Source: an uncultured Verrucomicrobiae bacterium
GTDB taxonomy: Bacteria > Chlamydiota > Chlamydiia > Chlamydiales > Rhabdochlamydiaceae
Direction: 5' to 3'
DNA length: 64,000 nt
Assembly: GCA_963731265.1 (NCBI GenBank)
Contig: CAVSUE010000001.1
Coordinates: 1,248,001 to 1,312,000, forward strand
Made by a program: the position numbers and the translations under genes. Under the pieces are notes generated by a model. It did no database searches. It was not told the origin of the DNA and saw only the letters and a list, made by a program, of their open reading frames with translations. This document shows, in pieces, positions 56-62,700 of this stretch. The first letter of the stretch is position 1. Each line of letters starts with the position of its first letter.

Positions 56-1966
56 ATGAAAAACGGGCAACTCCTGCAGACACATCGTGATTCAAAAGCT
101 GGGCACTGGCTTCGTCGGCATGCTCCTCTTTGCAGCTGGCTGCATCGAGAATGTGCTTCTACATCAGCGCCATCGACTGCGCCTGCTGCAAATCTGAAGC
201 GACGACACTGCCATTGGCCAACTTTTGTTTCACTCTGGGTATATACATTTGTGTTCGCTGCAGGCTCTTTGTTGGCAGTTGGACAAGTTTCGCCTCAGAG
301 CGATGAGCGGGCCGAAGGAGAGATTTCAGATCTGAAAGAGCGTACCGGAATCAACAAACTGCATATTCTGTATTTGCTACAGTCCAAGGAATTCGACCGC
401 GCTATCGAGCTCTACCTGGATTACAAAAGGGCGTTGGGTAGGGACGACTTTGAAATCTTGCAGCAAATGGCGATGATCATCCTTGAACAAGGCGCCCGCA
501 GCACGGATCCCGAAACGCAGTTGATCAGCATTTTTGGTTCTAGCATCGCGGGTATTTCAGCCTCGATCGATGTCCTCGAGACAGGGATCACCAGCCCGCA
601 GCCCCAGACGCAAATGGCGGCCATTCAATTTTTAGGCCGCATGCAGGATGACAGATGCGAAGAACTCCTCAACAAGGCGATGTCCTCAGATTATTTTTTT
701 ACGCGCTTGGAGGCCGCTTATCAGCTCGCCATCCGCAAATCGCGGACAGCCGTCGGGCATATTGAATCTTTGATGAATAGAGTCCCTCCCGAAATGCGCT
801 TTTTTTTCCCTCAATTTTTCGCCTTGATCGGCACCTCGGATGCGATCGCGTTGCTCCGCAATATGATGGATGAACCATTTCATATGACGAGGATCGAAGC
901 CATTTTGAGCGCAGCCCGCTATGGCCGCGATGATCTCTTGCCCATGATCCGCTCGCGCGCAACGCACTTGAACATCGCGGAACAGGAAGCTTGCGCATGC
1001 GCTATCGGCTATCTCAAAGACTCCAAGTCGATTCCTCTACTGAAAAAATTAGCTCAATCTCCATCGACAAACGTCAAACTCGCGGCAAATTATTCCTTAT
1101 TTCTTTTAGGAGAGGAATCTGCCAAGAATGAGATTGCCATTTTGGCCAAAGAAAGAGATATTTTTGCCATTTCATTGCTCGGAGAAATCCCTGGAATGGA
1201 GGAGATTCTTTTTCCTTTGACCCAAGATCCTCAGATGCAAGTACGTTTCAACGCTGCTTTCTCGGCGCTGAAGCTCGGCGACCACCGCCACTTTCATGTC
1301 TTTCTGGAATTTTTAATCCGCGATTCGCGCGATCTAGGATTCCAGCCCCAACATAGCGTTGGAGGCTCGCTTATGGCATGGAAGGTCATATCTTCTGCTC
1401 AACAACATCAGAAAAACAATCCCAACGACTTGATGGCTTTATCACTCAGCGTCAGAGAACATCTGCTTAAGTTATGCCTCGACCTTCCAGCCGAGGAGTT
1501 TCTTAAAATCGCCAATGTCCTGTTTGACTCTAAGCAAGCCGACCTGATTCCGGTGCTTATCGACCTGATGGAAAATCTTCAAACTCCCGCAGCGATCGCT
1601 CTTTTAAAAAATAAAGCCCACACTGCCGGAGCACCCCTGACACGGGCCTATTGCAATCTTGCCTTGCTGCGGTTAAAACAGGGCGAACCCTATAAAACAG
1701 TTGTCTTGAGCTGGATTTCAGCGAAAAAATATACGGAGATGTTTCGTTTTCGGCCCATGCTGCCCTGGGATCGAAAGAAGTTGGAAAAATCGAATGCTTT
1801 TGAGCTTACTCCGGAAGAAAATTCCAGGCTCCTCATCGAATGTTATCAGACCATCGCCGTCGAGCATGACAAGCAGAGCATCGAGATCATCCTCGATGGA
1901 CTCAAAACCGGACATCCCAAAAACCGTCCCATCCTCGCGGGCCTCCTCGTCCAAGCCATTCAGTAA
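56..1966 (+). CDS. HEAT-repeat protein (chlamydial CT350-like) with an in-frame repeat insertion near the N-terminus
   Basis: 636 aa; repeated helical HEAT-like motifs (TRLEAAYQL, VKLAANYSL, VRFNAAFSAL); upstream of an LptD-like gene and def, as in chlamydiae. Confidence 0.8.
   Translation: MKNGQLLQTHRDSKAGHWLRRHAPLCSWLHRECASTSAPSTAPAANLKRRHCHWPTFVSLWVYTFVFAAGSLLAVGQVSPQSDERAEGEISDLKERTGINKLHILYLLQSKEFDRAIELYLDYKRALGRDDFEILQQMAMIILEQGARSTDPETQLISIFGSSIAGISASIDVLETGITSPQPQTQMAAIQFLGRMQDDRCEELLNKAMSSDYFFTRLEAAYQLAIRKSRTAVGHIESLMNRVPPEMRFFFPQFFALIGTSDAIALLRNMMDEPFHMTRIEAILSAARYGRDDLLPMIRSRATHLNIAEQEACACAIGYLKDSKSIPLLKKLAQSPSTNVKLAANYSLFLLGEESAKNEIAILAKERDIFAISLLGEIPGMEEILFPLTQDPQMQVRFNAAFSALKLGDHRHFHVFLEFLIRDSRDLGFQPQHSVGGSLMAWKVISSAQQHQKNNPNDLMALSLSVREHLLKLCLDLPAEEFLKIANVLFDSKQADLIPVLIDLMENLQTPAAIALLKNKAHTAGAPLTRAYCNLALLRLKQGEPYKTVVLSWISAKKYTEMFRFRPMLPWDRKKLEKSNAFELTPEENSRLLIECYQTIAVEHDKQSIEIILDGLKTGHPKNRPILAGLLVQAIQ
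77..243 (+). mobile_element. Family C palindromic element, in frame within the HEAT gene
   Basis: acacatcgtgattcaaaagctgggcactggcttcgtcggcat...gcagctggctgcatcgag matches the reverse complement of 57866-57934 and 55948-56019; ends ttttgtttcactctgggtata. Confidence 0.85.
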
Positions 1967-1974
1967 TGATTTAT

Positions 1975-59665: not shown

Positions 59666-59760
59666 ATATCCCCTCTAGGTTTAAAATAATATTTAAACCA
59701 TGAAAATTAATTCAATTTGATGTAGAACTTAAACACGAAAAATAGAAAAAGCATGGTTTT

Positions 59761-62700
59761 ATGAGCATCAAGAACATCCAAATGAATGATATGACCGCTG
59801 CGCTTCCGGTTTGCACATGGGAACAAGAACCGGGAACTTGGATTCGTGATCAGATTGCCTTTTCCTCGATGAACCCAGCTATGGGAACTGCTATCTTTAA
59901 GAAAGTCATCAATGAAAAAATCCCCCTTGCAAAGAATCTAATTTCTCATGCTGGTTTTAAAATTAAAGAAGCTCATTTAGCGTTACCAATCAAGACGGTT
60001 TTTTTTATTTTTATCGATGAGCTCGTCGAGCACTATCAAAATCAGACGGGGGAAAGAGACGAACAATTGGATCAAGAGTACATCAAACTCAAAGAGCTAC
60101 TCGCCAAGAAGCATTCTCAAATCTGGTCTAATGATCAAAGTGAGTTCCTTGAATTTGTGCATCTATTAAAAACCAAATTAATTCTCGCGGATGCTGTGCC
60201 GCCTGAGTTCGACGCTCAACTTGCCCAATGGTCCGAAGTTCTTAATATTCAATACGTCGCCAATATGATGTTTCTAGCGCTTTTTTTTCCTGATAGTTAT
60301 GTAAAAACTCAGCATCGCTTACCAACCACTGAACTTTATATGGATGACAAGTATTACTTCCGGGAAATTACTCGTGGTGGTGTTTTACAAACATTCGATT
60401 TAATTTTGAATCAGCTCTATAAAGATTCTTCGTGGGTTCTCCCCAAAATGATTGAAAAGTTACCCCCCCTAAATAACGATAAATTAGAGGAAGAATTCTT
60501 TAGATTTACTGCGTTCGATCGCCAACTTGCGCTGAATAATATTACACCTGTTTTTTCTTTAGTGCGAATATACGCCGTTGAAATGAATAATATCCTTAGT
60601 CGGCTTTATTCAATCAATATTCAAGACAACGAACAACTTATTCCATTATTAGGCAGCATTCAGGCAACTATAGAGATAGTCTGCCATTCATCATTAAAAT
60701 TTGAACAAATGATCAAAACAATGACTAATAACAAAAATAAGTCATATTACAAATCTGGAGTTACAATAAATTCAAGCCATGTTCTATTTCATAATCTCAT
60801 AAGTTATGCAGAGAGTGCACACTTAAAGTCGAAATATCTGGACATTCCTTTAAAAAATCTAAATCGAATTATAAATGCAATAATTAATTCCAATAGTTAT
60901 TGGCTCGAGTGCGAAAAGGAAGAAAAAACGCCAGCTTTAGGAACGCCTTATTTAATTAGTACAGCAATAAGAAATAATAAAAATTCCGAAGATTCATTAC
61001 TCGCAGAACTGGAAAAAGAAAAAAAAGTAAAAAAGGATAAACATCCCAACTGCTCTTCGATTAAAAAAAGAGGTAAAGGGAACACGAGGGCTGCAGAAAA
61101 TTGTGAAAAAAAAGGAAAGAATTCGCAAGCAAAGTTGGAACATCTACAACAAGCGGTTCAAAACGTGCCCAATGGCAATGTCGGCGCCTCAGATTTGCCG
61201 CAGCTGCTGCCATTGGCGAGGCTCGAGAGCAGCTCGGCAATCTTGCCAACAAGCCAGCCAACTGTTTGGCTCGCTTCTAATCTCCAGGTGAAATGCGGTA
61301 CAATACGCGATTTGGCTAATGCTGCCCATTCCAAAGATTGGGATGCGAGTCACGGCAGCGGCCAAATTTTGAATGACCATGTGTATGAAGCCTTTGCTCA
61401 ATTAGACAGCAGGCCCTCGAACCCGGCTTCCCCGGTGTGCTCCACACATACCACCACCCCATTTGTTACGCCGCCTTCAATCACGGGAGCCCAAACTGCA
61501 TCTATAACCACGGGTTCCAGCTTGGGAAAACACCTTTCCTCTGCTCCTAGCAGCCGGGACTTCAGCCGGGCAGTTACGGCACGTTTTCCTCGGCCAATTA
61601 AAATTTTGAGAAAAAAACTCAGAGAACTTCATATTAAGAATCCGTCCTCATCGTTGCGGCAAGCGATGTGGCATTTCGACCATTTGATCGTGATTCAAGG
61701 CAGCCTTGCCGAATCTGCTTTGGCGACCCCGGACCAATTATGCTTGATGGCAGCGGCGACAAATTATGCTCAAAAAACGTTGGAGCAAACTTACCGTTTT
61801 TGTTTGAAACAAGAGCAAGCCCCCTTCACAACAACGCATAATTTAAAAACCTATCACAAGCAGCTGGATCCTCATTTTTCGACTTACCCTACCATCGTTA
61901 AAGACCTCTTTTTAGCCAATGACTGGCACCGCTACTTTTATACCCAGCATAAAAAGTGGACTTCCCACACGACATTCCAGGTAAACATCCCTCCCCTTTT
62001 AGAGAAATTATACAAGATAGCCGAAGGGCAGACGGGTTCTGTAGGAGAATTGAATAAGACGGTCGAAGAAATGATCGAAAATACTTCGAAGCACTTGGAG
62101 ATCTTATTGAAACAGACGGACGTGGCGGCCAGTGATCGGCTAAGTCCACGTGAAGAAGTGCAATGGTTGAAAAAAGCTTTTCATGAGCAACGGTTCATGG
62201 GAATTCAACAAACGCTTGAGAATTTTCTGGAGAATTTTAAAATGACTCATCCGGTTTACTCAACTGCAAAGCAAGCGGTGGCTTCTTTAAAAATCCTGGA
62301 AGCAAGCATCCAACAAATGAACAAAGCTAACGACATCGGCGAGTTCTCAACATGGGCTGTGGGGAGTTTGCAACAGGTTCAAGAGTCGATCGAAAACGTT
62401 TTCCACTGCATCGAATATTACAAGAAAGGAAAAATAAGCTCTCAACACGAGCTTAAGACATTTGCTGGGGAGCTCGGCATCAATATGGGATCTTTGGCGG
62501 ACAACACTCAGGAGCTCTCCTACAAAGTGCGCTACCCCGTTGAGAACAAAAATAATAGCCTGTCTGCTCAGATCATCGATGATCTTGAGGCACTTAAGGA
62601 GTTTCCCGATCTAGAAAAGGGCTTCAAATTGCAAACCACTCCAAAGACATTATGGGCACCCCCAAGTTCTGAAGCGTCTCTGAGTAAAGTTGTTGAAAAA

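What the first reader, a model, noticed from the sequence alone, without database searches (positions are those of the whole stretch)
77..61387. Palindromic element inserted in frame in four unrelated proteins (RPE-like family C)
Seen: one repeat family with TATAC…TGATTCAAAA / TTTTGAATCA…GTATA termini lies inside the HEAT gene (77-243), serpin (55771-56019), PP2C (57777-57934) and the 1018-aa protein (61143-61387), plus an intergenic fragment near 8805-8880. All four ORFs remain open. PP2C and the 1018-aa protein read it in the same frame (LQRGGQNLTNGNVDVLDL…LLNHDVY vs LQQAVQNVPNGNVGASDL…ILNDHVY). The serpin uses another frame and HEAT the opposite strand. Short (~160 bp) and long (~245 bp) forms share modules. 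Known: Rickettsia palindromic elements add peptide segments to proteins in this way. Inference: this is an independent chlamydial case of selfish DNA creating new protein sequence. I know of no description of it but cannot search.
Basis: partly seen in the sequence, partly recalled or inferred. Interest (0 to 1): 0.85.

Follow-up and report, generated by a model that had tools for sequence, protein, structure and literature searches.

The report
In-frame mobile palindromes inside bacterial genes
A small hairpin-shaped jumping-DNA element has landed inside several working genes of an uncultured chlamydia-like bacterium without breaking their reading frames, probably adding about 50 to 85 extra amino acids to each protein, as is known for the palindromic elements of Rickettsia.

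Summary
The repeat family is real: nhmmer finds 41 loci in the 2.34-Mb genome. It has long terminal inverted repeats ending TATAC...GTATA, and well-kept copies fold into whole-length hairpins.

Orthologues in related genomes lack the segments:
- PP2C: no relative with a match (38 of 40) covers the 52-residue insert.
- Serpin and HEAT: absent in 5 of 5 congeners.
- The 1018-aa protein: none of the 4 congeners with flanking matches covers the surrounding linker.

Against the closest relative, the net insertions are 156, 249 and 165 bp, all multiples of 3.

RecC, a secretin and the 3' end of bioB are also hit in this genome. In congeners the same element sits in the same reading frame inside MnmA, DnaX, an aldo-keto reductase and others.

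Its ends resemble those of a 1122-bp IS630-family insertion sequence found in a congener, and the empty sites carry TA. I read it as an IS630-type MITE that behaves like an RPE.

The HEAT, serpin and secretin copies split signal peptides, so the function of those three proteins is uncertain. Translation of the inserts is inferred, not shown. I found no published description. I rate it a new member of a known kind, of moderate interest.

The parts
79..243 (-). Short-form copy (subfamily C1) inside the 5' end of the HEAT gene. The gene reads its opposite strand. Net insert is 165 bp (55 codons), after codon 8.
   Evidence: nhmmer score 183 bits. Empty site in G003. DNA fold z -4.6.
56..1966 (+). 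HEAT-repeat protein gene (636 aa). The insert splits the predicted signal peptide: in G003 the conserved first 8 codons run directly into the hydrophobic stretch.
   Evidence: Pfam HEAT_2, HEAT_PBS and HEAT. Orthologues match residues 62-636 at 96% in G003. N-terminus read.
8794..8940 (-). Truncated C1-type copy (right arm and centre), intergenic.
   Evidence: nhmmer 95.8 bits, model positions 68-193; 75.2 bits after iteration.
10302..10444 (-). Copy of a sister MITE family (ends TATACTGCTGAC...CAGTATA), intergenic. Not part of family C in the strict sense.
55770..56018 (+). Long chimeric copy in the serpin gene: C2-type left arm, long internal module, C1-type right arm. Net insert is 249 bp (83 codons), after codon 15.
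   Evidence: nhmmer 148 bits. Empty site in G003. DNA fold z -4.2.
55726..57210 (+). Serpin gene (494 aa). The insert lies in the hydrophobic core of the ancestral signal peptide.
   Evidence: Pfam Serpin, residues 120-490, E 2e-101. 5 of 5 congeners match only residues 94/100-493.
57777..57934 (+). Short C1-type copy inside PP2C (residues 154-205). Net insert is 156 bp (52 codons). The hairpin has decayed.
   Evidence: nhmmer 158 bits. Empty site in G003. Fold z 0.0.
57319..58293 (+). PP2C phosphatase gene (324 aa). The insert replaces a 3-residue beta-hairpin turn.
   Evidence: Pfam PP2C and PP2C_2. Clean 52-residue gap against 6 orthologues. Solved PP2C chains match 28-152 and 207-320. AlphaFold2: insert pLDDT about 30, between strands 146-154 and 204-209.
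61143..61387 (+). Long-form C1-type copy inside the 1018-aa protein (residues ~462-541), read in the same frame as the PP2C copy. Diverged.
   Evidence: nhmmer 150 bits. Peptide alignment. Fold z -1.9.
59761..62817 (+). Gene for a 1018-aa protein with no Pfam family, member of a paralogous family. The insert lies in a variable linker between two conserved blocks.
   Evidence: No Pfam hit. Relatives match residues 5-453 and ~557/613-1016 only.

Best explanation
The segments are copies of a non-autonomous transposable element (a MITE), of about 160-260 bp.

Shown:
- The element has terminal inverted repeats of roughly 45 bp and folds as a whole-length hairpin.
- Copies are absent from the orthologous sites in relatives.
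- In-gene copies keep the reading frame.

Inferred:
- It is mobilised in trans by an IS630-family (DDE_3) transposase and inserts at TA dinucleotides.
- Its canonical forms measure 173 or 218 bp from TATAC to GTATA. With one duplicated TA they would add exactly 57 or 72 codons.
- They carry one stop-free frame, which encodes a hydrophilic and probably disordered peptide.
- Most insertions into genes are lost to selection. Those that land in this frame in a loop, a linker or a protein end survive and are translated as extra protein segments.
For: Repeat family and hairpin: 41 loci; DNA-fold z-scores of -4 to -13.

Inserts specific to this genome:
- PP2C: 38 of 40 relatives match only on the two sides of residues 154-205.
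- Serpin, HEAT and secretin: 5 of 5 congeners each lack the segment.
- RecC: 4 of 4 informative congeners lack residues 105-166.
- Net lengths against G003 are 156, 249 and 165 bp.

Host genes look intact:
- PP2C motifs are invariant.
- Flanking sequence is 86-96% identical to G003.

Tolerated position: the PP2C insert replaces a 3-residue turn and is modelled as disordered between two strands.

Same orientation and frame in other proteins:
- In this genome, inside RecC and at the end of BioB.
- In congeners, inside MnmA, DnaX, a metallophosphoesterase, an aldo-keto reductase, TrpA, an MptE-like and a UDPGP-like protein.
- In database proteins carrying BamA, MutY-type, YidD and GTPase Pfam domains.

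Canonical lengths: 7 of the 11 congener copies whose two ends were found measure exactly 173 or 218 bp, and 2 more measure 175 bp because the flank begins with TA.

Link to IS630:
- TA or TAT lies at the junction of the four empty sites I read for this.
- A 1122-bp insertion sequence in congener G016 has a 359-aa DDE_3 ORF and sharply defined ends.
- These ends match the MITE ends at 18 of 22 and 18 of 26 positions, counted by eye.
Against: - No expression or proteome data. No RNA run was listed, so translation of the inserts is an inference from their open frames and 3n lengths.
- The duplication length is ambiguous. Net insert minus element length is -2 (PP2C), -4 (HEAT) and 0 (serpin, BioB).
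- This genome has no close homologue of the G016 transposase (tblastn, no hit at 1e-5). Its own DDE_3 remnants are not flanked by family-C ends.
- The HEAT, serpin and secretin inserts split signal peptides. They may damage export or force a new start.
- Variation among 7 in-gene copies is equal at the three codon positions (0.117, 0.083, 0.094). Nothing shows selection on the peptide itself.
- The congener examples were found with peptide queries, which favours this frame.
- C2-type lengths in this genome vary by a few bases, by my reading of the ends printed. The '3n by design' claim therefore holds only for C1-type copies in congeners.
Confidence: 0.8

Rival explanations
1. The insertions are real, but the affected genes are inactivated, or are now read from new starts downstream of the insert, so no element-coded peptide ends up in a working protein. 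This is most plausible for the three N-terminal cases: HEAT, serpin and secretin.
For: - The inserts split the ancestral signal peptides after codons 8, 15 and 3.
- By my reading, in-frame GTG or TTG codons lie just after the HEAT and serpin inserts.
- No expression data exist.
- The insertions are younger than the split from G003, so decay might not yet be visible.
Against: - All five inserts compared with G003 leave the frame open and without stops. Three have net lengths that are multiples of 3. The secretin's 260-bp BLAST-derived insert is not a multiple of 3, yet its frame stays open, apparently through small indels in both BLAST-aligned flanks. Without translation through the insert this would not be maintained.
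- The PP2C, RecC and 1018-aa inserts are internal, so no downstream start can rescue those proteins.
- PP2C catalytic motifs are intact.
Confidence: 0.12
2. The insert is removed after transcription or translation, as an intron, an intein or a translational bypass would be, so the mature protein lacks it.
For: The sequence is strongly structured in well-kept copies. The sites lie inside conserved genes.
Against: - No Rfam family, including introns, matches anywhere in the window.
- Pfam finds no intein domain in the host proteins.
- If the insert were removed, there would be no reason for in-gene copies to be stop-free and in frame.
- The PP2C copy has lost its fold.
Confidence: 0.03
3. The segment is an ordinary protein module shared by these proteins, or an assembly artefact of a metagenome-derived genome, and not mobile DNA.
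For: The same roughly 57-residue peptide recurs in many proteins. The related genomes are metagenome assemblies.
Against: - Most copies are intergenic and carry stops.
- The element is read on the other strand in HEAT and in another frame in the serpin.
- Orthologous sites are empty with precise junctions at TA.
- Copies differ from one another, and the phenomenon recurs at different genes in separately assembled congener genomes.
Confidence: 0.03

Closest known systems
Rickettsia palindromic elements (RPE-1 to RPE-10). I read passages of the 2024 review PMC10969869 and of the R. bellii genome paper PMC1458961; Ogata et al. 2000 and 2002 are cited there.
   Same: - Palindromic repeats of about 150 bp in an intracellular-type bacterium.
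- Many copies inserted in frame in unrelated genes, each encoding a conserved peptide.
- The share of copies in genes is similar: 53 of 526 in R. bellii against 9 of 41 loci here lying in long open frames.
   Different: - A different phylum.
- This family has clear terminal inverted repeats, TA at its target sites and an IS630-type insertion sequence with matching ends in a congener.
- It is confined to 7 of 41 related genomes searched, all of one genus.
QMITE1 of Coxiella burnetii (PMC5896051; I read the abstract and outline only).
   Same: A MITE that often overlaps annotated ORFs in an intracellular bacterium. [quoted passage not shown]
   Different: QMITE1 is 300-400 bp with 2-3 nt direct repeats of variable sequence. 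The paper's emphasis is on promoters and small RNAs. Here the element is 160-260 bp, targets TA, and the in-frame inserts are verified against empty orthologous sites.
MITEs derived from IS630/Tc1-mariner elements (general class). The TA duplication of this class is recalled knowledge, not taken from a call.
   Same: Small size, no transposase gene, terminal inverted repeats like those of a DDE_3 insertion sequence, TA at insertion sites.
   Different: The canonical length adds whole codons, and one stop-free frame is used repeatedly inside housekeeping genes. The review treats this as exceptional outside Rickettsia.

Membership tests
MITE of the IS630 / Tc1-mariner type | Short (<500 bp), multicopy, with no transposase gene of its own | tested here: met
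   Copies are 156-261 bp at 41 loci, and none has an ORF of transposase size.
MITE of the IS630 / Tc1-mariner type | Terminal inverted repeats | tested here: met
   The arms pair over the whole length. DNA-fold z is -4 to -13 in 7 of the 10 copies folded, -2.5 in an eighth, and near zero in the decayed PP2C and 1018-aa copies.
MITE of the IS630 / Tc1-mariner type | TA target-site duplication | tested here: inconclusive
   TA or TAT lies at the junction in all four empty sites read for this (HEAT, PP2C, serpin, BioB), and most copies are flanked TA...TA. Net insert minus element length varies (-4, -2, 0, 0), so the duplicated length is not settled.
MITE of the IS630 / Tc1-mariner type | Ends match those of an autonomous insertion sequence that encodes a DDE_3 transposase | tested here: met
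   A 1122-bp insertion sequence in congener G016 has a 359-aa DDE_3 ORF. Copies with unrelated flanks define its ends. Its ends match the MITE ends at 18/22 and 18/26 positions, counted by eye. No such element was found in this genome.
Rickettsia palindromic elements (RPE) | Sequence homology to RPE-1 to RPE-10 | not testable with these tools
   No RPE sequences or models were at hand. Homology is unlikely given the phylum and the IS630-type ends. I claim that it works like an RPE, not that it is one.
Rickettsia palindromic elements (RPE) | Palindromic repeat inserted in frame in unrelated genes, encoding a conserved peptide | tested here: met
REP / BIME elements | 20-40 bp extragenic palindromes | tested here: not met
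   Elements are 156-261 bp and some are intragenic.
Intron or intein | Match to a known intron RNA family, or an intein splicing domain within the insert | tested here: not met
   No Rfam match in the window at gathering score. No intein domain in the 11 host proteins scanned.

The most novel reading that the evidence does not exclude
The family may be a 'translatable MITE': an IS630-derived element shaped by selection to sit harmlessly inside genes.

- Its canonical length plus one duplicated TA adds whole codons (57 or 72).
- It has a single stop-free frame that encodes a hydrophilic, disordered peptide.
- This would let it colonise the gene-dense genome of an intracellular bacterium.
- It would also be spreading horizontally among congeners. 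Copies in four species are 88-96% identical, while sampled host-gene stretches of two of them align at 72-82% to this genome.
Probability: 0.35. Interest if true: 0.7.

Novelty: new member of a known kind. Interest (0 to 1): 0.55.

Why it matters
It extends the Rickettsia phenomenon, selfish DNA translated into protein, to the PVC group (probably Chlamydiota).

Unlike RPEs, this family comes with a candidate transposase family, a target dinucleotide and empty sites in close relatives. Origin, timing and tolerance can therefore be studied.

It also has practical consequences for annotation. Proteins such as PP2C, RecC, secretin, DnaX and MnmA in these genomes carry 50-90 residue inserts that are not part of the protein family. 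Three exported proteins have interrupted signal peptides.

Unchecked notes from this scan report similar cases in many phyla, including other chlamydia-like genomes. The behaviour may be widespread, which lowers the surprise of any single case.

Tried and rejected
- RNA evidence: the look-up of sequencing runs on window 55600-62900 listed no RNA holder, and only DNA runs holding 0.05 of the words. I did not lay reads.
- Autonomous partner in this genome: pairing of terminal motifs gave no element of 1-3 kb. The family model found no ends beside this genome's DDE_3 remnants. tblastn and blastn with the G016 insertion sequence gave nothing.
- In L051 (G013), two MITE copies flank a DDE_3 fragment. 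I read these as insertions into an insertion sequence, not as its ends.
- Selection on the peptide: variation by codon position showed no excess at third positions.
- Iterating nhmmer to five rounds drifted into a sister family, so I use the first-round count.
- The 474-aa outer-membrane-protein-like ORF has no close orthologue. I could not test its two copies.
- L062 and L063 share only the element, not the host gene.
- The OmcB family search (PF03504) rang nowhere, controls included, and says nothing.
I folded the copies in a script instead.
- Literature: six searches found no paper that links RPE-like or MITE coding insertions with Chlamydiae or Verrucomicrobia. The 2024 MITE review does not contain 'chlamyd'.
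Full report
**Observation.**
- The window is G000:C1:1248001-1312000, in a 2.34-Mb, two-contig genome with 45.8% GC.
- A nucleotide profile of the five copies finds 54 hits, which merge into 41 loci, with E down to 1e-54.
- Five nhmmer rounds give 71 loci. 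Seventeen of these are a sister family that shares only the terminal TATAC and a central module, so I use the first-round number.
- Full-length copies fall into two subfamilies. The C1 type is about 173 bp, with a long form. The C2 type is about 163 or 260 bp. The two have related ends, and the serpin copy is a chimera of both.
- Well-kept copies fold as whole-length DNA hairpins, with z from -4 to -13 against dinucleotide shuffles.
- The PP2C copy (z 0.0) and the 1018-aa copy (z -1.9) have lost the fold.

**Where the copies lie.**
- Of the 41 loci, 9 lie wholly inside a stop-free frame of 250 aa or more. The rest are intergenic or lie in short chance frames.
- Pfam names the hosts: a HEAT-repeat protein, a serpin, PP2C, RecC, BioB, a secretin and a Legionella-OMP-like protein. 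The 1018-aa and 348-aa proteins have no Pfam family.
- Three in-gene copies (serpin, PP2C, 1018-aa) lie within 5.6 kb of one another in the window.

**Orthologue test, PP2C.**
- 38 of 40 relatives have a match, always as two pieces on either side of residues 154-205. In the complete loci the two pieces abut.
- Against six orthologues the gap is a clean 52 residues, and the catalytic motifs are invariant.

**Orthologue test, other hosts.**
- Serpin: 5 of 5 congeners match only from residue 94-100 onward.
- HEAT: 5 of 5 match only from residue 62-87 onward.
- RecC: the four congeners with a complete gene match residues 1-104/106 and from 167-180 onward.
- Secretin: 5 of 5 match from residue 87-97.
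- The 1018-aa protein belongs to a paralogous family. Relatives match residues 5-453 and ~557/613-1016, so its insert lies in a variable linker.

**Junctions against the closest relative, G003.**
- DNA comparison gives net insertions of 165 bp (HEAT), 249 bp (serpin) and 156 bp (PP2C), all multiples of 3.
- BioB takes a 172-bp insert, which is not a multiple of 3, at the overlap of the bioB stop and the bioF start. BioB thereby gains an element-coded tail of 57 residues plus two more in place of its last five residues, and the bioF ATG is kept.
- In the secretin a 260-bp copy sits after codon 3, and the frame stays open.

**N-terminal cases.**
- In G003 the HEAT, serpin and secretin proteins begin with ordinary signal peptides.
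- Here the inserts fall after codons 8, 15 and 3, with the ancestral ATG still upstream.
- These inserts are therefore inside the genes, not upstream of them. Whether export still works, or another start is used, is unknown.

**Frame.**
- PP2C, the 1018-aa protein, RecC, BioB and a 134-aa ORF all read the C1 type in one orientation and frame.
- In most C1-type copies this is the forward frame that lacks stops.
- The serpin and the secretin share another frame, through the C2-type arm and the long module.
- HEAT reads the opposite strand.

**Relatives and databases.**
- The same element, in the same orientation and frame, lies inside eight long ORFs of three congeners.
- Seven of these have Pfam families: MnmA, DnaX, a metallophosphoesterase, an aldo-keto reductase, the C-terminus of TrpA, an MptE-like protein and a UDPGP-like protein. 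The 705-aa ORF has none.
- A profile of the peptide finds only 68 proteins at E <= 1e-3 among 1.84 billion cluster representatives, most of them short ORFs.
- A word-based search for longer proteins finds 21. By their precomputed Pfam domains these include BamA, a MutY-type glycosylase, YidD and a GTPase.
- These examples were found with peptide queries, which biases them toward this frame.
- A DNA search finds the element in 7 of 41 related genomes, all in one genus (6 of 18 congeners) and in none of the 22 genomes of other genera searched.
- Copies in different species are 88-96% identical. Sampled bioB and recC stretches of G002 and G001 align at 72-82% to this genome.
- Of the 11 congener copies whose two ends were found, 7 measure exactly 173 or 218 bp and 2 more measure 175 bp because the flank begins with TA. 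Less 2 bp for a duplicated TA, these lengths add 57 or 72 codons.

**Mechanism.**
- The four empty sites read for this have TA or TAT at the junction, and most copies are flanked by TA.
- The exact duplication length is not settled, because the TA-rich ends differ by 2 nt between cases.
- DDE_3 (IS630-family) transposase genes occur in 12 of 19 genomes of the genus.
- In G016, a 1122-bp insertion sequence with a 359-aa DDE_3 ORF has ends defined by copies with unrelated flanks. Its ends begin TATACCC and carry the same CAAAAGTTGG-type box as the MITE.
- This genome has no close homologue of that transposase and no long element with these ends. Its copies may now be immobile.

**Structure.**
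- Solved bacterial PP2C chains match residues 28-152 and 207-320 with only three residues between them.
- An AlphaFold2 model from a 7-sequence alignment has mean pLDDT 62. It places the insert, at pLDDT about 30, between strands 146-154 and 204-209.
- The insert thus replaces the turn of a hairpin at the surface.

**What is not shown.**
- Translation of the inserts is inferred from open frames and 3n lengths. No RNA run was available.
- Variation among in-gene copies is equal at the three codon positions, so the peptide itself shows no sign of constraint.

**Taxon.**
- The genome has 4-5 TLC nucleotide transporters and an Hc1 homologue. The nearest HEAT-protein clusters are mostly Chlamydiota.
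- The records that hold the same element are titled Verrucomicrobia(e) or 'uncultured bacterium'.
- I take it as a PVC bacterium, probably chlamydial, but I made no tree.

**Comparison with what is known.**
- The behaviour is that of Rickettsia palindromic elements. The 2024 MITE review says a similar mechanism is conceivable in other prokaryotes and does not mention chlamydiae. R. bellii has 53 of 526 RPEs in genes.
- Six literature searches found no description for Chlamydiae or Verrucomicrobia.
- Unchecked notes from this scan report similar cases in more than 100 genomes, three of them chlamydia-like.
- I rate this a new member of a known kind, with a clearer link to a transposase than RPEs have.

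Noticed in passing
L085 (G012:C148:1000-2900); G000 C1:936863-937016: The PP2C orthologue of congener G012 carries a different in-frame 165-bp insert, at about residue 91. It comes from another palindromic family (DNA hairpin -45 kcal/mol) that has an 84.5% identical copy in this genome. The same gene has thus been hit independently by two MITE families.
   Followed up: partly
window 10302-10444, and 16 other G000 loci: A sister MITE family with ends TATACTGCTGAC...CAGTATA. One copy lies at the 5' end of an M50 peptidase ORF (C1:1642383) and one in the outer-membrane-protein-like 474-aa ORF. Congener G002 has more than 15 copies.
   Followed up: partly
window 55771-61387: Three in-gene copies (serpin, PP2C, 1018-aa) lie within 5.6 kb, whereas the genome average is about one locus per 57 kb. 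This could be local hopping or a tolerant region.
   Followed up: no
window 13831-15237: One of the genome's 4-5 TLC nucleotide-transporter genes lies in the window. The family search reports one TAG inside the match, while ORF listing shows an open 498-aa frame at 13840..15336.
   Followed up: no
G000 C1:372590-372794: A 205-bp C1-type copy lies about 50 bp from the end of another TLC transporter gene (C1:371071-372540).
   Followed up: no
L051 (G013:C5:256309-259719): Two complete 164-bp C2-type copies flank a DDE_3 transposase fragment, so MITEs have inserted into an insertion sequence. G013 holds more than 100 copies of the C2-type arm.
   Followed up: partly
HEAT (window ~79), serpin (window ~55770): The HEAT copy lacks 2 nt at one end and the serpin copy has an extra TA. 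Both changes bring the net insert to a multiple of 3, which may be frame-restoring slippage in the TA-rich ends.
   Followed up: partly
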